Assembly (NCBI GenBank): GCA_965248445.1
Contig: CBDFJG010000003.1
Coordinates: 1,395,069 to 1,459,068, forward strand
Reading direction: 5' to 3'
Length of the DNA: 64,000 bases
Source: Planctomycetota bacterium
Lineage (GTDB): Bacteria; Planctomycetota; JAJSAM01; JAJVHW01
In this document: piece after piece, positions 367 through 63,491 of the stretch
How the letters are laid out: each line of letters opens with the position of its first letter
Numbering within the stretch: position 1 is the first letter of the stretch
Notes under the pieces: model-generated
The model's input: only the letters and a program-made list of their open reading frames with translations
Told to the model about the DNA's origin: nothing
Database searches by the model: none
Program-made: the position numbers and the translations under genes

Positions 367-556
367 GTGGCGTTGCCCTTTGCCCACCTCAAGCTCCGAG
401 CCTGGAGAGCACCGTACCCCGGCTACCCGCGCGAGCTTCGTCACATCGGCGACCACCTCCGCCGCCGCCGCCTAGAGCTCGGTCAACACCAAGGAGGTGC
501 GGCAATACAGATGGGCGTGAGCACAGCCGCGGTGATCAAGTGGGAGCTGCGGGACG
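367..556 (+). pseudogene. XRE/Cro-type helix-turn-helix regulator, 3'-truncated by the IS3 insertion
   Basis: Translation VALPFAHLKLRAWRAPYPGYPRELRHIGDHLRRRRLELGQHQGGAAIQMGVSTAAVIKWELRD has the HTH pattern (LRRRRLELG..Q...A...GVS...V..WE). The frame runs straight into the IS3 left inverted repeat at 557. The GTG start is a guess. Confidence 0.5.
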
Positions 557-589
557 TGTCAACGACTTTGAGACACCGCGTCTTCGAGT

Positions 590-1672
590 TTAGTGAGCAG
601 CCTCCTGTGTCGCAGTCTCCAGCGCCGCGAGTTCCCGGGCCGGCGGGTTGATCCACGTCTCGGTCGGCAGAGCCGGCGGCGTCGGCGCACGGCGCACGAA
701 GCGCTCGGGATGCGCCGCGTACGCGGCATCGAGCACGACCGAGCGCGCGGCGACGGCCGCTTCGGCGCGGCCGTAGTGCACGGTCTCGGGCGTCAGCAGC
801 CCGAGACTCGAGTGACGATGCTCGCGGTTGTACCAGTGGAAAAAGGCGCGGCAGTGCGCCCGCGCGTCCTCGATGCAGCCGAAGCGCGCTGGGAAGTCCG
901 GCCGGTACTTCAGCGTGCGGAATTGGCTCTCGGAAAACGGATTGTCATTCGACGTGTACGGCCGGCTGTGCGACTTCGTCACGCCGAGATCGGCGAGCAG
1001 AAAGGCCACCGGCTTGCTGATCATCGGCGGCCCCCGATCGGAGTGGATCGTGAGCTGCTCCGCCGCGATCCCCTGCTTCTCGCAGGACTGCTCGATGAGT
1101 GCCGTCGCCAGCGCACCGCTCTCGCAGTCCGCCAGCATCCAGCCCACGACGTTGCGGGAGTAGATGTCGAGCACGACGTAGAGATAGAAGTAGCTCCACT
1201 TCACCGGGCCGCGGAGCTTGGTGATGTCCCAGCTCCAGACCTGGTTCGGGGAGGTCGCGAGGAGCTCGGGCTTCTTGTACGCGGGATGACGCAGCTGGTT
1301 GCGGCGCTCACGCACAGCACCAGCCGCACCGAGGATGCGGTACATCGTGCGCACCGAGCACAGGTAGCGTCCCTCGTCGAGCAGGATCGCCCACGCCGCA
1401 AGCGGTGACAGATCGCAGAAGCGCTCCTCGCTCAGCACCGCGAGTACGGTAAGACGCTCGTCGATCGTGAGGGCGCGCGGCGAGCGCCGGCGCGGCTGCT
1501 GGGGCCGGGGGCACGTGCGTGCCGTTCGGCGCCGATAGAGCGTGGCGCGCGTGACTCCGAGCGCGCGGCACGCGGGGGCGACGCCCACGCGTCCCCCCAG
1601 CTCCTCCGCCGCAATCACGTGTCGCTCCCGCTCGTCTCGGGCATCTCGATGCCCAGCAGCCGTGAGACTTTT
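590..1672 (-). CDS. IS3-family transposase OrfB (DDE integrase core), expressed as an OrfAB fusion by -1 frameshift
   Basis: rve-type core: WSWDITKL..YFYLYVVLDIYSRNVVGW..HSDRGPPMISK..SHSRPYTSNDNPFSESQFRTLKY..YNREHRHSSLG. The frame is open from 1843, in the -1 frame relative to orfA. The upper bound is set at the slippery site. Confidence 0.85.
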   Translation of the reverse strand, partial: KSLTAAGHRDARDERERHVIAAEELGGRVGVAPACRALGVTRATLYRRRTARTCPRPQQPRRRSPRALTIDERLTVLAVLSEERFCDLSPLAAWAILLDEGRYLCSVRTMYRILGAAGAVRERRNQLRHPAYKKPELLATSPNQVWSWDITKLRGPVKWSYFYLYVVLDIYSRNVVGWMLADCESGALATALIEQSCEKQGIAAEQLTIHSDRGPPMISKPVAFLLADLGVTKSHSRPYTSNDNPFSESQFRTLKYRPDFPARFGCIEDARAHCRAFFHWYNREHRHSSLGLLTPETVHYGRAEAAVAARSVVLDAAYAAHPERFVRRAPTPPALPTETWINPPARELAALETATQEAAH

Positions 1673-2133
1673 CGCTGCACGTCGATGATCACCTCGGCCG
1701 TCTCGAGCCGCTTCTCGAGACGGGCGACTTCGCGCTCGAGCTGCTCGTTGCGCTTCTTGAGCGCACGGTCCGGATCGGGCTTGGGACCACGCCGCTTGGG
1801 CGAGAGCGCCTCGAGCTGGCCCTGGTCCCGCGCGCGCCGCCACGTCAACAAGTGCGAGGAGTACAGCCCCTCACGGCGCAAGAGAGCGCCGATCTCGCCG
1901 GGCTTCGTGCACGCGTCCGCCGCCTCGATGATCCGTAGCTTGTACGCGGCGCCAAAGCGCCGCCGCGAGGCGCGCGGCACGACCTCGGGGTCGCGCACCC
2001 CAACGTCCCCCGGGCCGCGCGCCCCGGGGGAGCCCCCTCCGCCTCGATCGCGCTCGCTATGCTCGCCCTCCCTCGGCTCCGGGATCTCCCCCGGCGCTGT
2101 GTTGTGGTTGTTCGTCATCGCTGGTTCCTCCAC
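1615..2133 (-). CDS. IS3-family transposase OrfA (HTH / leucine-zipper part)
   Basis: 172 aa containing KLRIIEAADACTKPGEIGALLRREGLYSSHLLTWRRARDQG and a coiled-coil tail (NEQLEREVARLEKRLETAEVIIDVQRK), typical of IS3 OrfA. Confidence 0.85.
   Translation of the reverse strand: MEEPAMTNNHNTAPGEIPEPREGEHSERDRGGGGSPGARGPGDVGVRDPEVVPRASRRRFGAAYKLRIIEAADACTKPGEIGALLRREGLYSSHLLTWRRARDQGQLEALSPKRRGPKPDPDRALKKRNEQLEREVARLEKRLETAEVIIDVQRKVSRLLGIEMPETSGSDT
1634..1674 (-). promoter_or_regulatory. programmed -1 ribosomal frameshift signal of the IS3 (A_AAA_G slippery site plus downstream stem-loop)
   Basis: Minus strand reads CAG CGA AAA GTC in the orfA frame, and the orfB frame is exactly -1 here (GCG AAA AGT). 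Immediately downstream is GTCTC-ACGGCTGCT-GGGCATC-GA-GATGCCC-GAGAC, a nested perfect stem. Confidence 0.6.
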
Positions 2134-2380
2134 CGCCCTGCACAGTAATCATCCGTGGGGTCGGTGTCTCAGCCACGTTGGCACAGAGGGCTCTGCCGCC
2201 GCCCTGCCCTGGTAGGCGTGCGTCACGTTCGCGGCTCTCCGCGGCGGGGTCCGGCGAGGCGTTTCATCCGTCACACCCTCTTTGGTGCCGGGGAGAGCGC
2301 GAATATACCCACTTTCTCAGGGCAGGAGTTCACGAGTGCTGAGCCGACACACTGGCTCGGGACCCGCATGTCGTACGTCG

Positions 2381-2605
2381 TCAGTCCGGTTGGGCGTCGG
2401 CCGGAGAGTCCGGCTGGGCGTTCTCTCGGGAGTTCGGCTGGGCGTCGGCCGGAGAGTCCGGCTGGGCGTTCTCTCGGGAGTCTGGCTGGGCGTCGGCCGG
2501 AGAGTCCGGAGCGGCATTGGTGGGAGAGCGGGGGGACGCGTTCGCGGCGTCCTCGGTGCAGTCTCCGCAGCCGGCCACGAAAACCGTCGCGAGGGTGAGG
2601 CGGAG
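2381..2605 (-). pseudogene. lipoprotein gene remnant (5' end removed by the IS66-family insertion) with repetitive acidic/proline tail
   Basis: At the IS66 boundary the frame reads LRLTLATVFVAGCGDC (h-region plus lipobox), but the Met and n-region codons lie inside the IS. The rest is PDSPADAQ / PDSRENAQ repeats. The fragment is boxed between IS3 (ends 2183) and IS66 (starts 2606). Confidence 0.45.
2384..2510. repeat. tandem repeat, alternating 24-bp units (48-bp period), about 5 units
   Basis: GTCCGGYTGGGCGT followed alternately by CGGCCGGAGA or TCTCTCGGGA, read directly. In-frame on the minus strand. Confidence 0.9.
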
Positions 2606-4137
2606 GTACCCGTTCAGGGTATGACGGTCCGCGGCCTCAGCGCGTGATCGGGAGCGCGACGAGAGCCGGCGGCGAGCGGTTGTGCGCGAGTGCCGCGCTG
2701 ACGTCTGCGAGGTAATCGAAGACGCTCTCGCCACGCTGGCGGAGCGTGGCGGTGACGGTCAGGATGCGCTCGACGAAGCGGAGTCCGCGCTCGCTCTGAC
2801 TTCCGTGCGTTGCGCGTCTCCACAGGACCGGCTTGCGCACCGCGCGCTCAGCGGCGTTGTTCGTCGGGGAGACGCCAGGGACGTCGGCGAAGGTCCACAG
2901 AGCCTCCGCTCGGTCGAGCAGATGCCGAGTCGTTCCGCGTACTCGGCGGTGCTTGCTGTCTGCGCCGCGCACGAGCAGCGTCAGGAGTCGGTCCCATGTG
3001 AGACGCAGCTCACGCCGCATGCGGTCGCGGTCCCCGTGCTCGCCGAAGTGACGCTGAGCTCGCATGACAGCCTGGGCGAGACGCACGGCCTGCTTGCCGA
3101 AGCGCCGGCCGCCGCGCGAGCCCTCGGCCAGCGCTCGAAAGTCCCTCTCGAGATGCGCCCAGCAGATCTGGCGGCGCTCGGTGGGATGCTGGTCGTAAGC
3201 GCCCATACGGTCGGTCACGAGGACGCCCCTGAAGCGCTTGCCCACGAGTCGCCGCATGGCCTTGGCGCTCCTGCGCCGATCGATACGATGGACCGTGGCG
3301 TGCTCACAGACCGCGCTCCACAGCCAATGCAGCGTGCCACGACGCGACCACGGTGTCTCGTCTACATAGGCGACGCTGCTCGTGCGTACGGCCCCGAGGG
3401 CCTCGATGTGCGCTGAGGAGATGGCTCCCGACACCCGCTCCTCGATCGCACTGACCGTGCCCGGTGACATCGAGACGCCGATGACGTCACGCAACAGACG
3501 ACTGGTCTCGCGCCGCGACAGGCGGAAGACGCCGACCAGAGCCGCGGTGAGCGCACAGAGTCGCGGGCCGAAGGGACTCGCCGTCACACCGCTTGGCAGC
3601 GAGGCAGTGGACGTGGCGCCACAGTCCGTGCACCGTGCCCGGTGCAACCGGTGCTCGGTCACCTGGATCAGCCGTGGCGGGACCTCGAAGACCTGCTGGC
3701 GTGTCGGGGCGCGATCGATCGGGACGAGCACGTCGCTCCCACACGCGCTGCACTCGCGCGGGCGGTGGTCCTCTACGCCATCGACCTCGGACTCGTCCAC
3801 GAGCTTGCGCGTCGCCCCTTTGTGGCCGGGCTGCGCACCCTGGCGCTTGTCCGACGGCGGCTTGCGCCGCCGCCGCTTCTTGGACCACGACGGATCCGAG
3901 GACGGTGGGCGCGAGGAGGTGCGGGAGTCCCGGCGAAGACGGCTCTCGAGATCGTCGATCCGTGCCGCCTGCCGCTCGATCACCTCCGCCTGCTCGGCAA
4001 TCGTCTCGTCCCGAGCGTCCAGACGACGGGTCAGGCGCTCGACCAGATCACGCAGCTCATCGGTGCCCACATCCGATTCATCGACCGAACGGAAAGCGAT
4101 CTGGATCCGAGCTCAGAACCAAGGGCTGAACGGGTAC
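2606..4137 (-). mobile_element. IS66-family insertion sequence, single-ORF (ISBst12-like) type, copy 1
   Basis: 12-bp perfect terminal inverted repeat GTACCCGTTCAG (2606..2617 and the reverse complement of 4126..4137), with the GTA start typical of IS66 ends. About 1.5 kb with only the TnpC-like ORF. No 8-bp target duplication seen (AGGCGGAG against GCGTAGCG). Confidence 0.75.
2637..4070 (-). CDS. IS66-family transposase (TnpC-like)
   Basis: 477 aa. N-terminal leucine-zipper-like region, GAQPGHKG, zinc-finger CSACG...CTDCG, DDE region YVDETPW...LWSAV, ICWAHLERDF, and SPTNNAAERAVRKPVLWRR. Confidence 0.9.
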   Translation of the reverse strand: MGTDELRDLVERLTRRLDARDETIAEQAEVIERQAARIDDLESRLRRDSRTSSRPPSSDPSWSKKRRRRKPPSDKRQGAQPGHKGATRKLVDESEVDGVEDHRPRECSACGSDVLVPIDRAPTRQQVFEVPPRLIQVTEHRLHRARCTDCGATSTASLPSGVTASPFGPRLCALTAALVGVFRLSRRETSRLLRDVIGVSMSPGTVSAIEERVSGAISSAHIEALGAVRTSSVAYVDETPWSRRGTLHWLWSAVCEHATVHRIDRRRSAKAMRRLVGKRFRGVLVTDRMGAYDQHPTERRQICWAHLERDFRALAEGSRGGRRFGKQAVRLAQAVMRAQRHFGEHGDRDRMRRELRLTWDRLLTLLVRGADSKHRRVRGTTRHLLDRAEALWTFADVPGVSPTNNAAERAVRKPVLWRRATHGSQSERGLRFVERILTVTATLRQRGESVFDYLADVSAALAHNRSPPALVALPITR

Positions 4138-17732: not shown

Positions 17733-19409
17733 CTAGCCCGAATCGTTCACCAGCCGGGAATCTGAGCGGGCCGTCGTCTGTCTAAGTGCTCGTACTCGCT
17801 AGTACTTGCACCGACAGGAGCGCCGGCCCGATGACGACAGACTGTAGCCCGCAGGGGACCCTCTTCGCGGGCATCTGTGGACGCACCGCGGTGACGCGCT
17901 TCGACGCCGGTACCGTGACGAGCGACGGGGGCGTGCTGCTGCTCGAGCGGACCGATCGTCGCATCGATCTGCTCTCGCGGTTTGCGCGCTGCTTCGGGGA
18001 CCACCGGGACCCGCGTCGGGTCGAGCACACGGTCGGCCAGATGCTGCGTCAGCGGGTCTTCGGGCTGTGCGCGGGCTACGAGGATCTGGTGGACCACGAC
18101 CATGTCGGCAAGGACCCGCTGTTTGCCGCGGCGTGCGGCAAGCGCGAGGGTGCTCTGGCCACGCACCCGACGCTCTCGCGGCTCGAGACCACGCAGCTCG
18201 GCGCCACGGCACAGACGCGCTACGCCAAGATCGAGATGGACCAGGAGCGCGTGGACAGCGTGCTCAGCGACGTCTTCTGCGAGGCCATGGGGCCGGAGGA
18301 TCCGGGCCTGCTCGTGCTGGACCTGGACCACTCCGACGTGCGGCTGCACGGCCGGCAGGAGGGCCGCTTCTTCCACGGCTACTACGGGCACTACTGCTAC
18401 CTGCCGCTGTACGTCTTCTGCGGCGAGCACCTCTTGCTCGCTCGGCTCCAGACCGCTGACAGAGATCCCGCGCGCGGAGTCGTGGACGAGCTCCGTGCGC
18501 TGGTCTTACGTCTGCGGCGCCGCTGGCCCCGGGCCAAGGTGCTCGTGCGCGCAGACTCGGGCTTTTGCCGCGAGGAGCTGATGGCCTGGTGCGAGGCCGC
18601 CGGCCACTTCTACCTGCTGGGCATGGCGCGCAATGAGCGCCTTGAGCGACACGTCGAAGACGCGCTCGATGAGGCCGCAGCCCGTGCCGTGCAGACCGGC
18701 CGAGCAGCCCGGGTCTTTCGCGACTTTGCCTGGACCACGCTGGGGAGCTGGAGCCAGAGGCGTCGCGTGGTCGCCAAGGCCGAGCACCTGCCGGGCGGCA
18801 AGCGCAATCCCCGCTTCGTGGTGACCAATCTGCCGCCTCGTAGCTGGAGCAGCAAGCGTCTCTACGAGCAGCTCTACTGCGCCCGGGGCGAGGCGGAGAA
18901 TCGCATCAAGGAGCAGCAGCTCGAGCTCTTCGGCACCCGTCTGTCGGTGCACACGATGCAGGGCAACGCCGTGCGGATGGCCATGTCGGCCATGGCCTAC
19001 GTCCTGACCTGTGCGCTGCGACGCATCGGTCTCGCCGGCACCGAGATGGCGCGTGCGCAAGCCGGCACGATCCGCCTGCGGCTGCTCAAGATCGGCGCGC
19101 TCGTGCGGATCACGACGCGCCGGATCTGGGTCTCGATGTCCTCGTCGTGGCCCTGGCAGCACGTCTTCGAGCGCTGCGCGCAACGACTGCTGGCATCCCC
19201 GAAGCCGACCTGACGTCCCGCCGCGCCGTCCGCCACACCACCGCCCGGCCTACGGTCTGCCCACACCGCAGAATCCGCGCCGTTTCGGCCGCTCACTCGC
19301 GTTGCCCTTGTGGCAACGACGACAGCATCCGCCCTCGCCTGGCCAAGATCTGACCCTGTGGACTCCGAAAGCACCGTCATCGCGACGTCTCGTGAACAGA
19401 TGCGGCTAG
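17733..19409 (+). mobile_element. IS1380-family insertion sequence
   Basis: Imperfect terminal inverted repeats CTAGCCCGAATCGTTCACCAG (17733..17753) and the reverse complement of 19389..19409, CTAGCCGCATCTGTTCACGAG (15 of 21 match). A direct repeat TCTCGGC lies 2 nt outside each end (17724..17730 and 19412..19418). Exact termini are uncertain by a few nt. Confidence 0.65.
17786..19213 (+). CDS. IS1380-family DDE transposase
   Basis: N-terminus FDAGTVTSDGGVLLLERTDRRIDLLSRFARCF.DHRDPRRVEH..MLRQRVFGLCAGYEDLVDHD is the IS1380 signature. Also LDLDHSD, GYYGHYCYLPLY, VRADSGF, and RGEAENRIKEQ. Confidence 0.9.
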   Translation: MLVLASTCTDRSAGPMTTDCSPQGTLFAGICGRTAVTRFDAGTVTSDGGVLLLERTDRRIDLLSRFARCFGDHRDPRRVEHTVGQMLRQRVFGLCAGYEDLVDHDHVGKDPLFAAACGKREGALATHPTLSRLETTQLGATAQTRYAKIEMDQERVDSVLSDVFCEAMGPEDPGLLVLDLDHSDVRLHGRQEGRFFHGYYGHYCYLPLYVFCGEHLLLARLQTADRDPARGVVDELRALVLRLRRRWPRAKVLVRADSGFCREELMAWCEAAGHFYLLGMARNERLERHVEDALDEAAARAVQTGRAARVFRDFAWTTLGSWSQRRRVVAKAEHLPGGKRNPRFVVTNLPPRSWSSKRLYEQLYCARGEAENRIKEQQLELFGTRLSVHTMQGNAVRMAMSAMAYVLTCALRRIGLAGTEMARAQAGTIRLRLLKIGALVRITTRRIWVSMSSSWPWQHVFERCAQRLLASPKPT

Positions 19410-19419
19410 TCTCTCGGCC

Positions 19420-20277
19420 ATGCACGAGACGACACTCCACTCAGAGCGCGCCTTCGCCGTCGGCGAACACATCTCGCTGGGCGCGACCTCCGATCCGTAT
19501 TCGCCCCTCGAGCGACAGACGCGGTCCACCCGCGCTTCCCTGCGGGAGTTCGCCCGAGAGGCCACGCGGGGAGACGGCCTGCGCATCTCGATCACGACCC
19601 GCTCCCCGCTCGTCACGCGCGACATCGACGTCTTGCGTCGCATCGCCCGAAGGAGCGCGGTGCACGCCAACATGGCCGTGACCACGCTCGACGCTCGCCT
19701 GGCCGAGGTGCTCGAACCGCAGGCACCCGAGCGACAAGAAAGTGGGCCGAAGGCGCGGCTCCGCGCCCTTCGGCGGCTCCGCGAAGCCGGGATCCGTGCT
19801 GGGCTGTACGTCGCGCCGTTCTTGCCCGGTGTGACGGACGTGGACGCCGAGATGACTGCACTCCTTCGCGGCGCACGAGACGCCGGGGCGCTGTGGGTCG
19901 GGTGGCAGGCCGATCACCTGCGGGAACCGGACCGCTCGGTGCTGCTGCGCGCGCTGAAGAACCGCTACCCGCGCGTCGGAGCGCGCTACGAGGTGTCGCT
20001 GCGATTTGGGACGCTGCGATCCGGCCCCGGTGGATCCGGCCCCGGTGGATCCGGCCCCGGTGGATCCGGCTTGGGGGGATCCGGCCCGAGGGGATCCGGC
20101 CCGGGGGGATCCGGCTCGGGGGGACTCGGGTCGCGGCGGGACGGCCGACTCGCGTGCGACGCGGAGCACCGGCTGCGCTGCATCGCGCGACGACTCGGTC
20201 TTGCCGCAGCGCCACACGGCCAGCTGCCCAGCCCGGAGCGCGTGGAGCAGGCTAAGTTCGCGTTCGGACGAGCATGA
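19420..20277 (+). pseudogene. radical-SAM (PA0069/Rv2578c-like) family remnant lacking the CxxxCxxC segment, with an internal Gly/Ser repeat
   Basis: ISLGATSDPYSPLE, ISITTRSPLVTRDIDVL, VTTLDARLAEVLEPQAP, LREAGIRAGLYVAPFLPGVTD match the core and C-terminal parts of that family, but no Cys triad exists upstream. The IS1380 sits immediately 5'. Confidence 0.5.
20020..20124. repeat. 15-bp tandem repeat, 7 units (TCCGGCCCCGGTGGA and variants)
   Basis: Read directly. In frame it encodes GPGGS-like pentapeptides (SGPGGSGPGGSGPGGSGLGGSGPRGSGPGGSGSGG). Confidence 0.9.
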
Positions 20278-20287
20278 CGGAACGCCG

Positions 20288-21067
20288 CTAAGGGCTGATG
20301 CCGCGCACCGCGGCCAGGATCGCGTCCGGGTCCGCGCGGTCGGCGACGTCCTCTCCGACGCGCACCCAGGTAATCCGCCCCTCGGCATCCAGCACGATGG
20401 TGGTCGGATACGGCACGGGTCCGCGGCCGAACGGCTCGGGGTGCACGACGCCTAGGCTCGTCGCAACCGTGGCCTCCGGGTCGGAGATTATCGGAAACTC
20501 GAGACCCAGGTCCGCGGCCAACTCGGCCGCTCCCTCGGGCGAGTCCGTGCCGATCGCGACCACACTGGCCGATGTCCCGAGCTCGTCCGCGACGCCTTGG
20601 AGCTGCACCAGCTCCGCCTGGCAGAAGTCTCACCAGTGTCCGCGGTAGAGCATCACGACCGCCGGGCGGCCGGCGAGATCGCGCACGGACATCTCCCCGC
20701 CGCCCACAGCGGGCAGCGGATCCTGGAATCCCACCAGTGGCTGGCCGACCTCTGTGTGCGGCGGGCCCGAGATCGCGGGAAGAGCGAGGAAGTAGAGGAG
20801 CGTGGCGCCGAGAAGCGCGGCGAGACCGGCATTCAGCACGAGGGCCGGCGCGAGTGACGGCAACGAGACCGGCGGTTTGACCCTCCGCCGGCCTCCGAAA
20901 GCCACGATCCCGAGGATGAAGCCCGCCGTTGCCAGCATGGCCGCCGTCCAGGCGATCGAGACCTCGAGACGGAGCTGGATGAGCTCCAGCCACAAGACCG
21001 TGAGCACCATCCCCACGGCGAACGCCGCGTAGGAGATGAAACGAACCAGGCGCGGACGACTGCTCAT
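20288..21067 (-). CDS. membrane-anchored peroxiredoxin-like/redoxin protein with in-frame TGA at the first Cys of the CxxC motif (candidate selenoprotein; alternatively a nonsense pseudogene)
   Basis: ORFs 20630..21121 and 20288..20608 share one frame. The junction reads AVVMLYRGHW-TGA-DFCQAELVQLQ, where related redoxins carry WCPxC. The downstream part (VVAIGTDSPE...LEFPIISDPE...PTTIVLDAEGRI) is the rest of the thioredoxin fold. The N-terminus has three hydrophobic segments. Confidence 0.6.
20599..20615 (-). promoter_or_regulatory. SECIS-like hairpin 14 nt downstream of the in-frame UGA
   Basis: Minus strand reads GGAGCUG-GUG-CAGCUCC, a perfect 7-bp stem with a G/U-containing apical loop about 21 nt from the UGA. 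Confidence 0.45.
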
Positions 21068-21145
21068 GCGACTACCAACTCCCCATCGACCGATCCTCTT
21101 CCCGGCAGCGCGCCGGCGCACGCGGATTCTGGCGATCCGTCGTGA

Positions 21146-22132
21146 TCAGTCCTGATCCCGTCGCATGAGCTCGCGTGGATACGGACGCAGGTAGGTCTGG
21201 TTCCGTGCCCAGTCACGCTCGGGGAGAAGCCGCAGGCGATCCGCGAGCAGCGCCAGGGGGACCTGCAGCGGCTCCGCACCCGACCCGTACGCGTCGATGG
21301 CGCCCGCCAGCTCCGCACGGTCAGGTGTGTCGAGCCGCCCCGAGACATGCCCGGCGAAGTGCCGCAGCACGTTCACGTGGCGCCCGCGCGTCGCGTGGAC
21401 GGACAGGCAGTCCATGAGCAGGTCTCCGTACGCATCGACTGTCCGGTTGATGCCGGCATCCCCGACTCCCGCAACCAGCCCATCGAGTGCTCGATAGCTC
21501 GCTGGCGAGTGTGAGAGCAGCTGGTACTTGTGCTGCGCGTGAAAGTGGATCAGGTCGCGGGCCCGTGGTGCGATCGACAGCAGCTCGCGCCAGCGGCGCC
21601 GCGCGAACACGCGCTCCACGAACGACTCGCGCAGGGAGGGATCATCCAGCCGGCCTTCTTCCTCTACCGGCAGCGCCGGGAGCCCGTCGGCGCCCACGCC
21701 GGCGAAGAGGCCGCGACCCTCGTGCTTGGCCGGCTTCGTCGGTCCGGGATAGACCTTCACCCGGAAGAGCCCGCACGACGGCGAGTTGCTCTTGAACAGG
21801 TAGCCGTCGAGTCCGGCAACGCGCAGGCCACCGACGCGCTGCGCCGACCACGCAGACATCTCGTCGGTGAGGTCCCGCCGAGACTCGTTGGCGATCATCC
21901 GCGGTGACTCCGCGGTCCCTTCGAGGCGGACCGACTCGCGCGGGACGCCGAGTCCGAACTCGACCTCGGGACACACGGGGACCCCGTCGCAGAACTTCCC
22001 GAGCACATCGGTAGCGAACGGGTCGCGCTTGTGCCCGCCGTCGTGGCGGACCCGCTCACCCAGCAGACACGCGCTCACGCCCAGCCTCGGCCGGTCCGGA
22101 GCATCGGATACGCGGGTCTCGTCGGAGGTCAT
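21146..22132 (-). CDS. DUF523 (TudS-like Fe-S) / DUF1722 (YbgA-like) fusion protein
   Basis: RLGVSACLLGERVRHDGGHKRD (DUF523 N-terminus), then FHAQHKYQLLSHSPASYRALDGLV... (DUF1722). The ATG at 22132 was chosen; the track ORF starts 39 codons earlier. Confidence 0.75.
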   Translation of the reverse strand: MTSDETRVSDAPDRPRLGVSACLLGERVRHDGGHKRDPFATDVLGKFCDGVPVCPEVEFGLGVPRESVRLEGTAESPRMIANESRRDLTDEMSAWSAQRVGGLRVAGLDGYLFKSNSPSCGLFRVKVYPGPTKPAKHEGRGLFAGVGADGLPALPVEEEGRLDDPSLRESFVERVFARRRWRELLSIAPRARDLIHFHAQHKYQLLSHSPASYRALDGLVAGVGDAGINRTVDAYGDLLMDCLSVHATRGRHVNVLRHFAGHVSGRLDTPDRAELAGAIDAYGSGAEPLQVPLALLADRLRLLPERDWARNQTYLRPYPRELMRRDQD

Positions 22133-22242
22133 CTGCTCATTCTCCGCGCGGAATCCTGTAGGCGTGAGACCCCTGTCCCGTTTCCGATCATGGGTCGCAC
22201 GAGGACGCAGGTCGCGTTCGCGTCGCCCCGGAGGTTCCTGCC

Positions 22243-22674
22243 ATGCCATATCCCGAAGAGATGGTCGCCCCTATGCGCGCCGAGGTCGTGGACCTGGGCG
22301 TCCAGGAGCTCCGTACCGCCGCCGACGTCAAGGAGGCCATGGCCGACTCGACGGGGACGTCACTGTACTTCATCAACTCGGTCTGTGGCTGCGCCGCAGG
22401 CTCGGCGCGACCCGGCCTCGCCGCGTCGCTGCGCAACCCGAAGCGTCCCGATCGCATCTACACCGTGTTCGCGGGCCAGGACGCGGAGGCGACGGCCGAG
22501 GTGCGCAACAACATCCTCGGCATCCCGCCGAGCTCGCCGGCGATCGCGCTGTTCAAGAACGGCGCCCTGGTCGAGATGGTCGAGCGCCATCACATCCAGG
22601 GCGCATCGCCCGAGCAGCTCGGTCAGAGCCTGGCCGGTCTCTACGACGAGCACTGCTCATCGTCCGGAGTCTAG
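22243..22674 (+). CDS. bacilliredoxin-like protein (BrxA/BrxB, YphP/YqiW, DUF1094)
   Basis: MPYPEEMVAPMRAEV..ELRTAADV...SLYFINSVCGCAAGSARPG...FAGQD...IALFKNGALV: family pattern with the CGC redox motif. Confidence 0.8.
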   Translation: MPYPEEMVAPMRAEVVDLGVQELRTAADVKEAMADSTGTSLYFINSVCGCAAGSARPGLAASLRNPKRPDRIYTVFAGQDAEATAEVRNNILGIPPSSPAIALFKNGALVEMVERHHIQGASPEQLGQSLAGLYDEHCSSSGV

Positions 22675-31488: not shown

Positions 31489-32988
31489 GTAACCGTTCAC
31501 CCCTTGACAGCGTGTGAGCCTCAGCGTGCGACGGGCATCGGGACCATGACGGGCGGGTCGGCGCCGGTGAGGTGCGCGGCGACCGAGTCGGCGAGGAAGT
31601 CGAAGACTTGGTCGCCACGGCGTCGCAGCGTGGCCGCGGCGGTCAACACGCGCTCGGCGAAGCGGAGTCCGCGAGCGGACTGGCTTCCGAAGGAGCCCTT
31701 GCGCCAGAGCACCGCTTTGCGGACCGCGCGCTCGGCGGCGTTGTTCGTCGGACTCACGTCCTGGGTCCGCGCATAGGTGAAGAGGGCGACCACGCGGGGG
31801 CGCAGATGGTTGGCCAGAGCCGAGTCGTCGTTCGCGATCAGTCGCTCGAGCCGTCCGCGCAGCACAGCGGCTTCGCCTTGCAGCCGGTCACGGTCGCCGT
31901 GCTCACCGAAGAGCCGGTAGCTGCGCATGACCGACTGCGCGATCATGACGCCCTTGTTGCCGAAGCGGCGATGTCCTCGCGGGCCTTCGGCCAGCGCACG
32001 GAAGGCGCGCTCGATGTGCGCCCAGCAGAGCTGGCGGCGGGCAAGTGGGTGTGACTCGTAGGCACCCATCCGGTCGCTGATCACCGTGCCACCGAAACGC
32101 CGCCCGATCAGCCGCCCTTTCGCCTTGGCACTGCGGCGGCGATCGATCCCGAAGGCTGTGGCGTGCTCGCTCTCCGCCGCCCACAGCCAGCACACCCGGC
32201 CCCGTTCCTTCCACGACGTCTCGTCCACGTTGGCTCGCAGCGACGTGCGGACTGCCCCGAGGGCTTCGAGGTACGACGAGTGCAGAGCGTCACTGAGCCG
32301 ACGCTCACAGTCGCTGATCTTGCCCAGCGACATCTTCACACCGAAGATCTCACCGAGCAGCCGCTGCGTCTCCCGCACGCTCACGCGGTACACGCCGCGC
32401 AGCGCGCCGGCAAGTGTGGTCAGCCGCGGACCGAAGGCCCCGGTCGGCACGCCATCGGGCAGGACCGCCGTCGTGACCGCACGACAGCGCCGGCACCGCG
32501 CCTTGTGCAGCCGGTGCTCCCGCACCGTGACGAGCACGCGCGGGAGCACCGTCACCTGGTGCCGGTACGGATCGCCGATGCCCTGCTCGAGATCGTCGTG
32601 TCCGCACGCGTCGCAGAGGTCGGGACGGTGCTCCTTGGTCTCATCGACGTTGGACGGATCCACCAGCTCGCGCGCCGTGCCCTCATGGCCCGGCTGTCCG
32701 CCCTGCTTGCGACCGCTACGCGGCCTTCGGCCGCGACGGCGCTTGGACCACGCCGGGTCCGACGACGGAGGCCTCGAGCTGTTGCGGGAGTCACGCTTCA
32801 GACGCGACTCGAGCTCGTCGATGCGGCGCAGATGCTTCGCTTCGCGACGCTCCAGCTCCTCGATCCAGGCCAGAAGGCCCTCGACCATCGCCCGCAGATC
32901 CTCGTCCTGCCGCTCGCCCACAACATCTTGATCGACCGATGGCCGAACGATCTGGATCCTGGCTCGCGACGAAGGGGTGAACGGTTAC
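31489..32988 (-). mobile_element. IS66-family insertion sequence, single-ORF type, copy 2 (diverged from copy 1)
   Basis: 17-bp perfect terminal inverted repeats GTAACCGTTCACCCCTT (31489..31505 and the reverse complement of 32972..32988). About 1.5 kb. No 8-bp target duplication (GGCACGGA against CGTTCTTC). Confidence 0.8.
31521..32921 (-). CDS. IS66-family transposase (TnpC-like), paralogue of 2637..4070
   Basis: Same motif series as copy 1: GGQPGHEG, CDACG...CRRC, VDETSW, LCWAHIERAF, SPTNNAAERAVRKAVLWRK. Clearly homologous to copy 1 but substantially diverged by eye. Confidence 0.9.
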   Translation of the reverse strand: MGERQDEDLRAMVEGLLAWIEELERREAKHLRRIDELESRLKRDSRNSSRPPSSDPAWSKRRRGRRPRSGRKQGGQPGHEGTARELVDPSNVDETKEHRPDLCDACGHDDLEQGIGDPYRHQVTVLPRVLVTVREHRLHKARCRRCRAVTTAVLPDGVPTGAFGPRLTTLAGALRGVYRVSVRETQRLLGEIFGVKMSLGKISDCERRLSDALHSSYLEALGAVRTSLRANVDETSWKERGRVCWLWAAESEHATAFGIDRRRSAKAKGRLIGRRFGGTVISDRMGAYESHPLARRQLCWAHIERAFRALAEGPRGHRRFGNKGVMIAQSVMRSYRLFGEHGDRDRLQGEAAVLRGRLERLIANDDSALANHLRPRVVALFTYARTQDVSPTNNAAERAVRKAVLWRKGSFGSQSARGLRFAERVLTAAATLRRRGDQVFDFLADSVAAHLTGADPPVMVPMPVAR

Positions 32989-56300: not shown

Positions 56301-56741
56301 CTACGGGACTTGAGACGTGCGCCGGCGAATTCCGTACGTCCACCGCGCGAGGATCATCGCGGCAACGACTCCGGCCAGGATTCCGTTTCGCAACAGAGCA
56401 TCGTCGATCGTCGCCGTGTCCCCGAAGCAGCCGCACGCGAACGTCCCGCCCCACACGGAACGCACGCGGAGCAGCGCCGTCGTGAATACGAGCAGCAGGC
56501 CGAGCGACGCATAGAGTCCGCGGACCACGCGGAGACTCATCAGTGCACCCAGCAGGACCTCGGCGCCCACGATCGCGGCGAACGTGGCGTGCGCCGTCCC
56601 GCCGCCGCCCACGTCCGCCGCGATCAGTTCGTACGCGGGCAGGGGACTCAACAGCTTCGCGGCGGCCGAGACGAGCCACATCGCGGCCAGCGCGCACTCC
56701 AGGAGGTGCCATGCGCCGCGGAGGATGAGAGGCAGCCGCAT
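56301..56741 (-). CDS. MauE/DoxX-family redox-associated membrane protein
   Basis: Four TM segments, AAKLLSP near the N-terminus, and the family-typical FACGCFG motif. The ATG at 56741 shares 1 nt with the upstream stop. Confidence 0.7.
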   Translation of the reverse strand: MRLPLILRGAWHLLECALAAMWLVSAAAKLLSPLPAYELIAADVGGGGTAHATFAAIVGAEVLLGALMSLRVVRGLYASLGLLLVFTTALLRVRSVWGGTFACGCFGDTATIDDALLRNGILAGVVAAMILARWTYGIRRRTSQVP

Positions 56742-57121
56742 CACCGCAGCCGCCACTCTTCCAGGTCGACCTCGTACGTCCTGTCAACACGCCCGGTCTG
56801 GACGATCCGGACCGCTGCCGGAACGGTGGTCTCGCCGATCACGGTCACCTGCACGTTGAACTGCGTGCCCGGCGCCGGTCGCTCGACACGCCCCGGGCCG
56901 ACGATGCCGACCGGTCCGCGGAGCACCTCGATGGCGAGGAGATCCGCCGGCTCGCCCCCGCGAAGCTCGATCCGGATGGCGTAGATCGAGCGGTCTTCCT
57001 GGTGCAACTCGCGCCGGACGGTGATCTCGAGGTGCGGCTCCAGCGGGCGGGCCCGCGCATACGCAGCACCGGCCGCAAGGAGGGCCAGCACGAGGGCGAC
57101 GGCGAGGCGGGCGCGGTTCAT
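56741..57121 (-). CDS. small secreted hypothetical protein (126 aa)
   Basis: MNRARLAVALVLALLAAGAAYA signal peptide, then a beta-rich body. First gene of the run that continues into MauE. Confidence 0.6.
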   Translation of the reverse strand: MNRARLAVALVLALLAAGAAYARARPLEPHLEITVRRELHQEDRSIYAIRIELRGGEPADLLAIEVLRGPVGIVGPGRVERPAPGTQFNVQVTVIGETTVPAAVRIVQTGRVDRTYEVDLEEWRLR

Positions 57122-57168
57122 TCGACGAGGATACGGCCAGGCGCCGCGTCTTCCCGCGGGACTACACT

Positions 57169-57627
57169 GTGCGCCTCCCCGGAGGGACGATGGCGCGCGG
57201 CAAACTCACTGATCTCGGACTGCTCCTGCTTCGGGGCACCGGCGGCCTGATGGCCACCCACGGCTGGGCGAAGCTCCAGTGGGCGCTGGAGGACGACCCG
57301 CAGACCAAGTGGGAGGGGTTCGTGTGGCGCGTGCAGTCGCTGGGATTCCCGCAGCCCGAGTTCTTCGCGTGGGCGGCGATCCTCTCCGAGCTCGTCGCGG
57401 GCGTCTGCGTGCTGCTCGGCCTCTTCACGCGCGTCAGCGCGTCGTTCATCGCATTCACCATGTTCGTCGCAGCGTTCATCCGCCACTGGGACGACTCCTT
57501 CGAGAAGAAGGAACTCGCGCTCGTCTACCTCGCGATCATGCTCTGCCTGGCGTGCCTCGGCGGCGGGAAGTGGACCGTCGAGTCGGCCTGGCAGAAGAAG
57601 CGGTCGGCGGCGCGCGCGCAGGCCTGA
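57169..57627 (+). CDS. DoxX-family membrane protein
   Basis: LGLLLLRGTGGLMATHGWAKL....GFP.PEFFAWAAILSELVAGVCVLLGLFTRVSASFIAFTMFVAAF. An alternative ATG lies 7 codons in. Confidence 0.8.
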   Translation: MRLPGGTMARGKLTDLGLLLLRGTGGLMATHGWAKLQWALEDDPQTKWEGFVWRVQSLGFPQPEFFAWAAILSELVAGVCVLLGLFTRVSASFIAFTMFVAAFIRHWDDSFEKKELALVYLAIMLCLACLGGGKWTVESAWQKKRSAARAQA

Positions 57628-60299: not shown

Positions 60300-61070
60300 T
60301 CAGGCGGGCCGGGCGAAGCGGTCGGCGGCCACCACTCCCACGATCCCACGCAGGATCGCGTCGTCCGGGAGGCTGCGCTGCTCCTCGAGACCGAGCGTCT
60401 CGCGGTAGTGCGAGGCCAGCCGCGCAGAGAGCGTGATGCGCCGCGACGCCTCGATGCGATCGGTGGCGGCGACGAACTCCGTCAGGATCGCGGCCTCGCG
60501 GGCGGACACACGACGCCGCACGCGGCGCACCGCGTTCGGGTCCTCGCGCAGGCTGTTCTGTTCGCGGGCCAGCACGCGGAGCGCGCGGGGCGGCTTGTGC
60601 CGGCGGTCCTGGATGACGACGGTCCCAGCCAGACGATCACCGACCCGCCGGGCCTGCGGATCGAGCGCGATCAGGAGGGCGCCGAGCAGGTGGAACATCG
60701 GGAGCTGGTCCACCATGCGCGCGACGTTGCGGATCACCGCCTGCCAGCCGAGCAGCGGGGTGCCGTTCGCCTGCACCACCCGGATACCGAGCACCTTCTT
60801 GCCCCACGTCTGCCCGTTCCACCGCTGCTCCGCCCAGATGCGGTAACCGAGGTCGAGGACGAAGCCGATGACGATCATAGCGGCCCAGAGAGGCAGCGCG
60901 GCGACGAACCCCGTCAGCACGCCGAGCAACGTGGCGACCGTGCCGAGCACGGTCATGGCGACGGCGATCAGGATCTCGTCGATGAGCCATGCCAGCGCGC
61001 GCTCGGCGGGTCCCGCGATGCGAAACTCGAGCGGCACGAGTTCGGGTGTCACGACGGAGAGGCGCCTCAT
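60300..61070 (-). CDS. RDD-family membrane protein
   Basis: FRIAGPAERALAWLIDEILIAV..., W.GQTWGKKVLGIRVV..NG, ...RRVGDRLAGTVVI. ATGA overlap with the upstream gene. Confidence 0.75.
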   Translation of the reverse strand: MRRLSVVTPELVPLEFRIAGPAERALAWLIDEILIAVAMTVLGTVATLLGVLTGFVAALPLWAAMIVIGFVLDLGYRIWAEQRWNGQTWGKKVLGIRVVQANGTPLLGWQAVIRNVARMVDQLPMFHLLGALLIALDPQARRVGDRLAGTVVIQDRRHKPPRALRVLAREQNSLREDPNAVRRVRRRVSAREAAILTEFVAATDRIEASRRITLSARLASHYRETLGLEEQRSLPDDAILRGIVGVVAADRFARPA

Positions 61071-62152
61071 TCGGCCGTCTCCGGCGGCGCTGTGCTGCGC
61101 CTGCGGCGGATCGCCCGCCGCACCTTCCCGGCCAGATCCAGGGTGGCGGCTCCGCCACCCGGCGACCAGAGCAGCAGGTACGCCCAGTAACCGCCGCCCA
61201 ACGCGACGGCGAACGCGATCTTCAGCGGATACGGCAGGTGCGGCTCGTGGATCTGGCTGAACGTGCCTTCGACGGCCCCGGCGACGAGCAGCGTCGCGGT
61301 GGCGCCGATGAGTAGCACCATCACGTCGCGGCCCGCAGCATGGAGCGCGGCCCTCCGTCCCGCGAGACCGGGCACGAATAGCGCCTTCGTCAGGATGAAG
61401 CCACCCGCGGCGCCGAGCAGAATCGCGGGAATCTCGATCACGCCGTGCGGCCCCACCCACGCGAAGAAGAACACGGCTTGCCCGTCGAGGACGTACTTCG
61501 CCCCCACCGCGCCGAGGTACGCGCCGTTGGCGAACACGAGCAGCACGATTCCGATGCCTCCCGACACCGCCAGCGCGAAGCACAGGTACGTGACGCGGCT
61601 GTTGTGCGTGAACAGCTGCGCGGCGAACGGAACACCGACCGCCGACTTGCCGAGGACGCCGAGCCCAGCGCCGGTCTCCTCCGTCTCGACGCGCTCGCTC
61701 GCGTCCATGTAGCGGTGTCCCATCGGCAGCAGCACTTCGCCGGTGCCGGGGTCGTTGACGAACGACACCGCGCCGAAGATCGCGCCCGCGACGAAGATCG
61801 CCGCCGCCAGCAGTACCGCCAGGAAGCGGCGCCGCACGACCTCTGGGAAGTCACGCACGAAGAACTGCTTCACGAGCGGCCAGATGCGCGGAGCCCGCCC
61901 GCGGTGCAGCATTCCGTGGGCGCGGCCGACCAGTCCGCGCAGGTACTCCGCGGTCGCCCCGCTCTCGTCCCGCCGCAGCTCCTCCAGCAGGTCGGAGGAC
62001 GCGGCCCGGTACAGAGCGCTCAGCTCGCGCGCCGCGGCCGAAGTGAGCTTCTTGGCTCCGCCGTCCTCCAACTTGTCGAGTAAGAAGGTCAGCCGCGTCC
62101 AGCGCGCTCGCCGGGGATCGGCGATCATCTGCGTGTCCTGCCGCTGGCTCAC
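61067..62152 (-). CDS. SpoIIM-like (stage II sporulation protein M family, DUF95) membrane protein
   Basis: N-terminal helical domain, then FTHNSRVTYLCFALAVSGGIGIVLLVFANGAYLG...PHGVIEIPAILLGAAGGF, typical of the family. A GTG start at 62152 (GTGA overlap) is proposed; an ATG at 62128 is the alternative. Confidence 0.7.
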   Translation of the reverse strand: MSQRQDTQMIADPRRARWTRLTFLLDKLEDGGAKKLTSAAARELSALYRAASSDLLEELRRDESGATAEYLRGLVGRAHGMLHRGRAPRIWPLVKQFFVRDFPEVVRRRFLAVLLAAAIFVAGAIFGAVSFVNDPGTGEVLLPMGHRYMDASERVETEETGAGLGVLGKSAVGVPFAAQLFTHNSRVTYLCFALAVSGGIGIVLLVFANGAYLGAVGAKYVLDGQAVFFFAWVGPHGVIEIPAILLGAAGGFILTKALFVPGLAGRRAALHAAGRDVMVLLIGATATLLVAGAVEGTFSQIHEPHLPYPLKIAFAVALGGGYWAYLLLWSPGGGAATLDLAGKVRRAIRRRRSTAPPETAE

Positions 62153-63459: not shown

Positions 63460-63491
63460 CCCCGCGAGGATCGCAGTGCGTGACGGAAGTG

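What the first reader, a model, noticed from the sequence alone, without database searches (positions are those of the whole stretch)
20288..21067. In-frame TGA at the first Cys position of a redoxin CxxC motif, followed by a perfect hairpin: candidate UxxC selenoprotein
Two same-frame ORFs are separated only by the TGA at 20630..20632. Read through, the sequence is ...RPAVVMLYRGHW-[TGA]-DFCQAELVQLQGVADEL..., exactly where PRX_like2/AhpC-TSA redoxins have W-C-P-x-C. Both halves are needed for a complete thioredoxin fold. Fourteen nt after the TGA the mRNA forms GGAGCUG-GUG-CAGCUCC (20599..20615), whose G/U apical loop is about 21 nt from the UGA, within the spacing of bacterial SECIS elements. 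UxxC redoxins are a known class of bacterial selenoproteins. This one is unusual in being fused to a three-TM N-terminal anchor, and standard gene callers would split it or label it a pseudogene.
Basis: partly seen in the sequence, partly recalled or inferred. Interest (0 to 1): 0.7.

Follow-up and report, generated by a model that had tools for sequence, protein, structure and literature searches.

The report
Membrane-anchored UxxC selenoprotein redoxin gene
A gene that looks broken by a stop codon almost certainly encodes one membrane-anchored redox enzyme with selenocysteine in its active site; this kind of protein is already known, but gene callers routinely split it in two.

Summary
On the minus strand, 21067..20288 is one 259-codon frame interrupted only by TGA at 20632..20630. 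That TGA sits where Cys-containing homologues have the first Cys of W-C-x-x-C. A 7-bp hairpin with a GUG loop (20615..20599) starts 14 nt downstream.

Comparative data support selenocysteine. All eleven independent related loci fetched carry TGA at the same codon. These comprise four from the window's own clade and seven from a distant clade whose contigs look planctomycete. All ten that extend far enough have a hairpin whose loop starts 20-21 nt after the UGA. Only 4 of 89 Cys-form loci pass the same hairpin test. dN/dS against the closest relative is 0.26 upstream and 0.17 downstream of the TGA. TGA is the commonest ordinary stop in the window.

Of the best 120 database hits, 115 are about 111-aa C-terminal fragments starting just after UxxC, and only 3 are full-length Cys forms.

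The protein has three N-terminal hydrophobic segments, a peroxiredoxin-like thioredoxin fold and a U-x-x-C site. It matches the published "Prx-like thiol:disulfide oxidoreductase" selenoprotein class.

Not testable here: selA/selB/selC/selD in this genome (none lie in the 64 kb) and actual Se incorporation.

Verdict: a real feature and a new member of a known kind.

The parts
20288..21067 (-). Complete coding sequence of the selenoprotein: 259 codons including Sec146, ATG at 21067..21065, stop TAG at 20290..20288. The start codon is the gene caller's choice and was not verified. An in-frame GTG at 21121 is also open.
20630..20632 (-). In-frame UGA, predicted Sec146, the first residue of the U-D-F-C active site.
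   Evidence: TGA is conserved at this codon in L001, L082-L085, L089, L092 and L093-L095. Cys occupies this position in 89 Cys-form loci.
20621..20623 (-). Cys149 (TGC), the second residue of the UxxC motif and the predicted resolving partner.
   Evidence: invariant column C149
20599..20615 (-). Predicted bacterial SECIS core: 7-bp stem GGAGCUG/CAGCUCC with apical loop GUG (20608..20606). It encodes E-L-V-Q-L.
   Evidence: (-10.0 kcal/mol; loop starts 21 nt after the UGA)
20591..20629 (-). Possible extended lower stem around the core hairpin (MFE -15.9 kcal/mol for the 43 nt from the UGA). Predicted in the window only and not shown to be conserved.
20771..21049 (-). N-terminal membrane anchor: three hydrophobic segments (residues about 7-25, 38-56, 81-99). 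The N-terminus and the loop between segments 2 and 3 are positively charged.
   Evidence: The Cys-form homologue P0009 is modelled with three N-terminal helices.
20366..20740 (-). AhpC/TSA-type (peroxiredoxin-like thioredoxin-fold) domain, residues 110-234, spanning the UGA.
22243..22674 (+). Neighbouring PF06491 (Disulph_isomer, bacilliredoxin-like) gene. The pairing with the redoxin gene is conserved in relative L093. A functional partnership is possible but only inferred.

Best explanation
21067..20288 (minus strand) is a single gene for a membrane-anchored redoxin of about 259 residues with a selenocysteine active site. The ribosome reaches UGA at 20632..20630. The hairpin 14 nt downstream, with its G-U loop, acts as a bacterial SECIS and is bound by SelB-GTP-Sec-tRNA(Sec), so Sec is inserted instead of terminating (inferred from the established bacterial mechanism). 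The product has three N-terminal transmembrane helices and a peroxiredoxin-like thioredoxin-fold domain with the motif W-U-D-F-C at the N-terminus of helix alpha-1. There Sec146 would be the nucleophile and Cys149 would resolve the selenylsulfide. Charge distribution follows the positive-inside rule, which places the redoxin domain on the outer face of the membrane (inferred). It would then act as a thiol:disulfide (selenylsulfide) oxidoreductase or reductant-dependent peroxidase. The substrate is unknown. Shown here: the interrupted frame, the domain spanning the stop, the conserved TGA, the conserved hairpin, purifying selection on both halves, and the hydrophobic anchor. Inferred: SelB dependence, topology and chemistry.
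For: 1. The domain spans the stop.
2. TGA sits at the same codon in all 11 independent related loci. Window clade: L001 87%, L093 38%, L094 33%, L095 28% (identities; TGA). Distant clade at about 32-36%: L082-L085, L089, L092.
3. A HMMER search of 1.84 billion representatives with the N-fragment returned four relatives, and all of them end exactly at ...YRGxW.
4. In the profile search, 115 of the best 120 hits are about 111-aa fragments starting M-x-E-L-V-Q-L just after UxxC, and 3 are full-length Cys forms.
5. dN/dS against L001 is 0.26 upstream (dS 0.44) and 0.17 downstream (dS 0.64).
6. The hairpin meets the published bSECIS constraints (PMC13188914: loop 3-9 nt, stem 4-16 bp, G in the first two loop positions, 16-37 nt spacing, MFE <= -7.5). 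The window has loop GUG, 7 bp, 21 nt and -10.0 kcal/mol.
7. All 10 Sec loci pass with the loop at 20-21 nt, against 4 of 89 Cys loci, and only one of those four is at the same position. L093 and L094 show the same hairpin.
8. One stem pair changes G-C to C-G between the clades.
9. The second Leu codon of the stem is CTC in 10 of 10 Sec forms, against 11 of 38 Cys forms with Leu there.
10. The loop residue is Val (GUN) in 112, Gly (GGN) in 2 and Ile in 1 of the 115 fragments, which matches the G[G|U] loop rule.
11. TGA ends 27 of the 43 ORFs listed, so there is no genome-wide reassignment.
12. The modelled Cys homologue has three helices plus a Prx-like fold (pLDDT 85; closest match Bcp4 3hjp, TM-score 0.87).
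Against: No selA, selB, selD or tRNA-Sec lies in the 64-kb window. The rest of the genome could not be reached, so the Sec trait of this organism is unverified. The window hairpin is not thermodynamically exceptional against shuffles. Covariation rests on one pair and probably one evolutionary event, and five stem pairs never vary. In three of four window-clade relatives the top pair is broken (CUC for CUG), which gives a 5-nt loop CGUGC. Stem conservation is confounded with conservation of the peptide E-L-V-Q-L. There is no experimental evidence for Se incorporation.
Confidence: 0.88

Rival explanations
1. Pseudogene: a Cys-form redoxin gene inactivated by a TGC/TGT-to-TGA nonsense mutation, with the downstream half no longer translated.
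For: Standard gene calling yields two fragments. No Sec machinery is seen in the window. The locus is flanked by an IS element and a truncated radical-SAM ORF, so there is local decay.
Against: The same TGA is present in 11 independent relatives down to 28% identity, with no second lesion in either half. dN/dS downstream of the TGA is 0.17 at dS 0.64. Sec-type fragments outnumber Cys forms 115 to 3 among the best hits. A position-fixed hairpin accompanies the TGA.
Confidence: 0.03
2. SelB-independent recoding: the UGA is read through by a near-cognate or suppressor tRNA (Trp, Cys or Gly). The hairpin would stimulate read-through, giving a non-Sec full-length protein.
For: The Sec machinery is unverified for this genome. 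The conservation and selection data show only that the UGA is decoded, not by which amino acid.
Against: The UGA replaces a redox-active Cys in a CxxC motif, which is the classic Sec/Cys pairing (PMC1088965, PMC2398784). The loop obeys the G[G|U] rule and the spacing of SelB-type SECIS elements (PMC13188914). TGA is the main ordinary stop in the window. A Trp or Gly at the nucleophile position would kill the active site.
Confidence: 0.05
3. Two separate functional genes: a small three-TM membrane protein ending at the TGA, and an independently initiated C-terminal half-redoxin.
For: A GTG (window) or ATG (distant clade) lies shortly after the UxxC. Both fragments are called as genes in many assemblies.
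Against: The split cuts the Pfam domain at its active site. The C-fragment would lack strands beta-1 and beta-2 and both active-site residues. The Met after UxxC is also conserved inside full-length Cys forms (CPVCMIEL in P0009, CPICMIEL in P0032), so it is an internal residue and not a start. In the window clade the putative internal start is at a different position.
Confidence: 0.03

Closest known systems
Prx-like thiol:disulfide oxidoreductase selenoproteins (PF00578, UxxC). Called 'Prx-like protein' in the Sargasso Sea study (PMC1088965) and 'Prx-like 1' in the GOS study (PMC2398784). Listed as 'predicted with high confidence' in PMC13188914.
   Same: AhpC/TSA domain above the Pfam threshold. 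A thioredoxin-like U-x-x-C motif instead of the peroxiredoxin T-x-x-U/C. Sec aligned with Cys in many homologues. A SECIS-type hairpin immediately downstream of the UGA.
   Different: The window protein and its relatives carry a three-TM N-terminal anchor, and Sec is nearly fixed in the family (115 Sec-type fragments against 3 Cys forms among the best hits). I could not compare directly with the published reference sequence (WP_010940744.1). Whether this membrane-anchored subgroup is already included in that class is therefore not established.
NCBIfam NF040769, SelL-related redox protein (the PRX_like2-type CxxC group)
   Same: It is the best NCBIfam match for both the window protein and L082, and it covers the active-site region.
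   Different: Scores of 44 and 54 bits are far below the curated cut-off of 120, so the protein is not a member by NCBI's criterion.
BCP/PrxQ and AhpE-type peroxiredoxins (PDB 3hjp, 5enu, 1xvw, 5iiz)
   Same: They are the closest solved folds to the modelled homologue (TM-score 0.82-0.87 normalised to the target) and the closest PDB sequence matches.
   Different: Canonical Prx enzymes have P-x-x-x-T-x-x-C with a peroxidatic Cys. Here the Thr position is Sec, the peroxidatic Cys position is Cys149, and the Pro position is not Pro (L-Y-R-G-H-W-U-D-F-C). The chemistry is expected to be Trx-like dithiol (selenol/thiol) exchange.
Membrane-anchored extracytoplasmic thiol-disulfide oxidoreductases ResA/TlpA/CcmG(DsbE)
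   Same: A W-C-x-x-C motif, an N-terminal membrane anchor and a predicted location outside the membrane. There are weak sequence matches (4pq1, 4nmu, 3c73; ResA and DsbE models).
   Different: These have a single anchor helix rather than three. NCBIfam scores (33 and 19 bits) are far below the cut-offs (170 and 123). No cytochrome-maturation genes lie next to the window gene.

Membership tests
Bacterial selenoprotein gene (Sec-UGA plus bSECIS) | The in-frame UGA aligns with Cys, normally a redox-active Cys, in homologues. | tested here: met
   89 Cys-form loci have TGC/TGT at this position in ...[YF]RGxW-C-x-x-C. Column C146 is invariant in A1.
Bacterial selenoprotein gene (Sec-UGA plus bSECIS) | The UGA is conserved in orthologues and both flanks are under purifying selection. 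| tested here: met
   11 of 11 related loci have TGA. dN/dS is 0.26 upstream and 0.17 downstream.
Bacterial selenoprotein gene (Sec-UGA plus bSECIS) | bSECIS model (PMC13188914, Fig. 2 legend): apical loop 3-9 nt, upper stem 4-16 bp, G in the first two loop positions, 16-37 nt between UGA and loop, MFE <= -7.5 kcal/mol. | tested here: met
   The window has loop GUG, 7 bp, 21 nt and -10.0 kcal/mol. All 10 Sec loci pass, against 4 of 89 Cys loci. This was my own implementation, not bSECISearch.
Bacterial selenoprotein gene (Sec-UGA plus bSECIS) | Covariation supports the hairpin as an RNA structure. | tested here: inconclusive
   One pair has a compensatory change (G-C to C-G) and five pairs are invariant. 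92% of cells pair, against 17-36% when the partners are slid. The result is confounded by the E-L-V-Q-L coding constraint.
Bacterial selenoprotein gene (Sec-UGA plus bSECIS) | The genome encodes selA, selB, selD and tRNA-Sec (selC). | not testable with these tools
   None lies in the 64-kb window.
Bacterial selenoprotein gene (Sec-UGA plus bSECIS) | Selenium is incorporated into the protein. | not testable with these tools
   This needs 75Se labelling or mass spectrometry.
Prx-like thiol:disulfide oxidoreductase (PF00578, UxxC) | AhpC/TSA domain above the Pfam gathering score. | tested here: met
   78.8 bits against a cut-off of 26, residues 110-234.
Prx-like thiol:disulfide oxidoreductase (PF00578, UxxC) | A U-x-x-C motif at the N-terminus of helix alpha-1 of a thioredoxin fold. 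| tested here: met
   W-U-D-F-C in the sequence. In the model of homologue P0009 the W-C-P-V-C lies just before helix 125-136. The model is a proxy at about 31-33% identity to the window fragments.
NCBIfam NF040769, SelL-related redox protein | Score at or above the curated cut-off (120 bits). | tested here: not met
   43.9 bits (window) and 53.7 bits (L082).
Canonical peroxiredoxin (Prx) | P-x-x-x-T-x-x-C active-site motif with a peroxidatic Cys. | tested here: not met
   The sequence is Y-R-G-H-W-U-D-F-C: Sec occupies the Thr position and there is no Pro four residues before it. PrxQ and AhpC equivalog scores of 19-22 bits are far below the cut-offs of 260-272.
ResA/TlpA/DsbE extracytoplasmic thiol-disulfide oxidoreductases | Score at or above the NCBIfam cut-offs. 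| tested here: not met
   ResA 32.6 bits against 170; DsbE 18.9 bits against 123.

The most novel reading that the evidence does not exclude
The window gene and its hundreds of split relatives may form a distinct family that has not been described as such: three-TM, outward-facing UxxC selenoredoxins, found in planctomycete-like contigs and in the window's own poorly sampled high-GC lineage. In this family Sec is almost never replaced by Cys, and the SECIS hairpin dictates the peptide E-L-V-Q-L in helix alpha-1. That would point to an extracytoplasmic redox task for which Cys is a poor substitute, and to systematic mis-annotation of the family as 111-aa 'AhpC/peroxiredoxin' proteins.
Probability: 0.3. 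Interest if true: 0.5.

Novelty: new member of a known kind. Interest (0 to 1): 0.4.

Why it matters
For annotation, the two called fragments (145 aa and 106 aa) should be merged into one Sec-containing CDS. The same correction applies to at least 115 database clusters now named 'peroxiredoxin' or 'AhpC subunit', which are really C-terminal halves of selenoproteins. For biology, the gene implies that this uncultured high-GC organism uses selenocysteine. Its proteins have no relative at 90% identity or more in a collection of 15 billion proteins. The result also points to a membrane-anchored, probably outward-facing selenoredoxin whose Sec is rarely replaced by Cys. In this case the SECIS visibly constrains the protein sequence, because the loop codon is limited to Val or Gly. 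None of this changes the understanding of Sec decoding. It is a well-supported instance of a known phenomenon.

Tried and rejected
1. The genome-contig scan with alignment A1 used only a peptide pattern spanning C-x-x-C with Cys. It therefore returned only Cys forms (427 relatives, 25-40% identity) and missed both the Sec forms and the window's own genome.

2. The metagenome scan with the C-terminal half returned one locus (L082).

The N-fragment P0001 was used instead.

4. The look-up of encoding contigs found no record for P0001, so the window's contig is not retrievable.

5. The listing of cluster members showed that all the window proteins found in the collection are singletons without names, which gave no taxon.

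6. A blastn of the IS1380 element against plasmids gave only distant proteobacterial IS matches and was uninformative for taxonomy.

7. Rfam gave nothing relevant at the site, either at gathering thresholds or at E <= 10.

8. Folding-energy z-scores of the window hairpin are not significant, so I rejected thermodynamic stability alone as an argument.

9. The other same-frame stop-separated ORF pairs are ordinary neighbouring genes or antisense frames, not further selenoprotein candidates. These are TGA at 38982 after a complete SRAP domain, and TAG at 36049.

10. I considered using the last protein search to look for SelD/SelB on a contig of the same length. I rejected it because only the best 120 hits are listed.

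Full report
**1. The observation**

The feature is on the minus strand. Translating 21067..20288 gives 259 codons with one internal stop, TGA at 20632..20630...AGRPAVVMLYRGHW-*-DFCQAELVQLQGVADELG... The frame ends at TAG 20290..20288.

With Cys put in place of the stop, Pfam AhpC-TSA scores 78.8 bits (cut-off 26) over residues 110-234, and Redoxin scores 66 bits. Both matches cross the stop. Third-position GC is 0.81 and 0.87 on the two sides in this frame. A window-wide scan for stops flanked on both sides by coding-like sequence found no other candidate inside a domain.

The hairpin GGAGCUG-GUG-CAGCUCC lies at 20615..20599. It starts 14 nt after the TGA, and its loop starts 21 nt after it. 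Hydropathy gives three hydrophobic segments, at residues about 7-25, 38-56 and 81-99. The public protein collection holds the two fragments as separate products: P0001 (145 aa) and P0005 (106 aa).

One caveat applies. The hairpin's folding energy is not unusual for 70% GC sequence (z = -0.3 and -0.6). On its own it proves nothing.

**2. Relatives with the same TGA**

The first protein search found one close relative, P0002. Its contig L001 has ...LYRGRW-TGA-GFCQAELVQLQQ... at the same codon. Nei-Gojobori estimates for window against L001 are:

- upstream of the TGA: dN/dS 0.26 (dS 0.44);
- downstream of the TGA: dN/dS 0.17 (dS 0.64).

Both halves are therefore under purifying selection, while the residues flanking the TGA differ (H to R, D to G).

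A metagenome scan with the C-terminal half found L082 at 32% identity. It reads ...FFRGRW-TGA-PFCMIELVQLERR..., is preceded by three hydrophobic segments, and has the hairpin UCGAGCUG-GUU-CAGCUCGA in the same place.

A profile of the three redoxin domains then returned 886 proteins. Of the best 120:

- 115 are about 111-aa proteins that begin M-x-E-L-V-Q-L, immediately after the second Cys of the motif;
- 3 are full-length Cys forms (P0009, P0030, P0032).

The Met is also conserved inside the Cys forms (CPVCMIEL, CPICMIEL), so it is an internal residue that gene callers take for a start.

DNA fetched for five of these fragments (L083, L084, L085, L089, L092) shows an upstream ORF ending in TGA nine bases before the "start". 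In each case the sequence reads W-TGA-P-x-C-M. The neighbouring genes on those contigs (SBP_bac_10/N_methyl, Sigma70_ECF, DUF4058) look planctomycete. That assignment is an inference from memory and was not tested.

A HMMER search of 1.84 billion representatives with the N-fragment P0001 gave four relatives at 28-86% identity. All four end exactly at ...YRG[NHP]W. The loci for three of them have TGA followed by x-F-C-[QR]-[AT]-E-L-V, and L093 and L094 continue with -Q-L-Q. These loci are L093, L094 and L095.

L093 is syntenic with the window. It shares AIM24, a divergent PF06491 gene, RNase PH, Ham1 and LepA. It therefore comes from a related organism.

In total, 11 of 11 independent relatives keep the TGA, and none has a second lesion.

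**3. The hairpin as a SECIS**

The published consensus for bacterial SECIS elements (PMC13188914, Fig. 2 legend) requires:

- a 3-9 nt apical loop;
- a 4-16 bp upper stem;
- a G in the first two loop positions, usually G[G|U];
- 16-37 nt between the UGA and the loop;
- MFE <= -7.5 kcal/mol.

I implemented these rules using contiguous stems of at least 5 bp. All 10 Sec-form loci then available pass, with the loop at 20-21 nt. The window has loop GUG, 7 bp and -10.0 kcal/mol. Only 4 of 89 Cys-form loci pass. Of those four, only L086 has the hairpin at the same position. L086 is the closest Cys form and its loop is GCU, so it looks like a fossil SECIS left after a Sec-to-Cys change. L093 and L094 have the same hairpin as L001. 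L095 ends inside the hairpin.

On an eight-sequence alignment, 92% of stem cells pair, against 17-36% when the partners are slid. One pair switches G-C to C-G between the clades, and five pairs never vary. Covariation is thus weak and rests on a single event.

Two observations at synonymous and loop positions add support:

- The second Leu of the stem is CTC in 10 of 10 Sec forms, against 11 of 38 Cys forms with Leu at that position.
- The loop codon encodes Val (GUN) in 112, Gly (GGN) in 2 and Ile in 1 of the 115 fragments. That matches the G[G|U] rule. Cys forms have Ala, Arg or Gly there.

In three of the four window-clade relatives the top pair is broken (CUC for CUG), which gives a 5-nt loop CGUGC at -7.7 kcal/mol. 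This still lies within the model. Rfam gave no match.

**4. Alternatives**

- A pseudogene is excluded by the conserved TGA, the low dN/dS downstream, and the 115:3 excess of Sec-type fragments.
- Genome-wide TGA reassignment is excluded because TGA ends 27 of the 43 ORFs listed in the window.
- Two separate genes are unlikely, because the split cuts the fold at the active site.
- SelB-independent read-through cannot be excluded by computation. It fits poorly with a UGA at a nucleophilic Cys position and with a SelB-type loop.

**5. What the protein is**

The best PDB sequence matches are a TlpA-like "electron transport related protein" (4pq1), BCP/PrxQ proteins and ResA.

An AlphaFold model of the full-length Cys homologue P0009 has pLDDT 85 overall and above 90 in the domain. 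It shows three N-terminal helices followed by a Prx-like thioredoxin fold, with W-C-P-V-C just before helix 125-136. The closest solved folds are Bcp4 (3hjp, TM-score 0.87) and AhpE.

The motif is Trx-like (U-x-x-C), not the Prx motif P-x-x-x-T-x-x-C. NCBIfam's best model is "SelL-related redox protein" at 44 bits, far below the cut-off of 120.

The N-terminus (+2) and the loop between segments 2 and 3 (+4) are positively charged. The positive-inside rule then puts the redoxin domain outside the membrane. This is an inference.

**6. Known or new**

UxxC "Prx-like" selenoproteins with a PF00578 domain are a long-known, abundant predicted class:

- 22 sequences in the Sargasso Sea study (PMC1088965);
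- 225 "Prx-like 1" sequences in the GOS study (PMC2398784);
- "Prx-like thiol:disulfide oxidoreductase" in Geobacter, Syntrophus and Desulfotalea (PMC1794560);
- listed as predicted with high confidence in a 2026 review (PMC13188914).

The window gene is therefore a new member of a known kind. A literature search found no description of a three-TM, planctomycete-rich subgroup. I could not compare it with the reference sequences, so its status as a distinct subfamily remains open.

**7. What remains untested**

No selA, selB, selD or tRNA-Sec lies in the 64 kb. The rest of the 1.81-Mb contig was unreachable. Selenium incorporation, topology and substrate need experiments.

Overall confidence that this is a genuine Sec-decoded gene is about 0.88.

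Noticed in passing
window 17786..19213 (+) and 19420..20277 (+): An IS1380-family transposase (DDE_Tnp_1_4, E 1e-141) sits next to a radical-SAM ORF. That ORF matches only profile positions 46-163 of 166, so it lacks the N-terminal part of the domain. The gene is probably truncated by the insertion.
   Followed up: partly
window 20018..20124: A 15-nt tandem repeat of about 7 copies (consensus GATCCGGCCCCGGGG) encodes GPGGS-type repeats in the tail of the truncated radical-SAM ORF, just downstream of and convergent with the redoxin gene.
   Followed up: no
window 2640..4070 (-) and 31524..32921 (-): Two IS66-family transposase genes (DDE_Tnp_IS66 plus DUF6444) lie in the window. Together with the IS1380 element this indicates an IS-rich genome region.
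   Followed up: no
window 21149..22249 (-): A DUF523 (2-thiouracil desulfurase, PF04463) plus DUF1722 gene lies 78 nt upstream of the redoxin gene on the same strand. DUF523/YbbK proteins were recently reported as a new selenoprotein family in other bacteria (PMC12013277). This copy has no in-frame TGA. The gene is absent from the syntenic locus L093.
   Followed up: partly
window 22243..22674 (+); L093 4756..5172 (-): A PF06491 (Disulph_isomer, bacilliredoxin-like) gene neighbours the selenoredoxin gene in both the window and the 38%-identical relative L093. It may be a redox partner.
   Followed up: partly
L086 3370..3412: The closest full-length Cys form (P0009, TGT at the Sec position) still has the hairpin UCGAGUUG-GCU-CAGCUCGA at the SECIS position. 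Its loop is GCU instead of GUN. It looks like a fossil SECIS after a recent Sec-to-Cys replacement.
   Followed up: partly
L001 about 470..2585: The contig carrying the closest relative changes composition abruptly after about nt 470. Its called 424-aa product fuses the redoxin C-half to a subtilase (PF00082). This is probably a chimeric assembly.
   Followed up: no
Proteins P0006-P0124: At least 115 database clusters of about 111 aa, many named 'peroxiredoxin' or 'alkyl hydroperoxide reductase subunit AhpC' by JGI, are C-terminal fragments of UxxC selenoproteins truncated at the Sec codon. This is a systematic annotation error.
   Followed up: yes
window 56304..57624: Adjacent MauE-like and DoxX/DoxD-like membrane protein genes are further thiol/quinone-redox membrane components in the window.
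   Followed up: no
window 60303..63998 (-): A cluster of RDD, SpoIIM-domain, DUF58/VWA and MoxR-type AAA genes. From memory this arrangement is common in Actinomycetota, which may hint at the organism's phylum. Every window protein found in the collection was a singleton at 90% identity.
   Followed up: no
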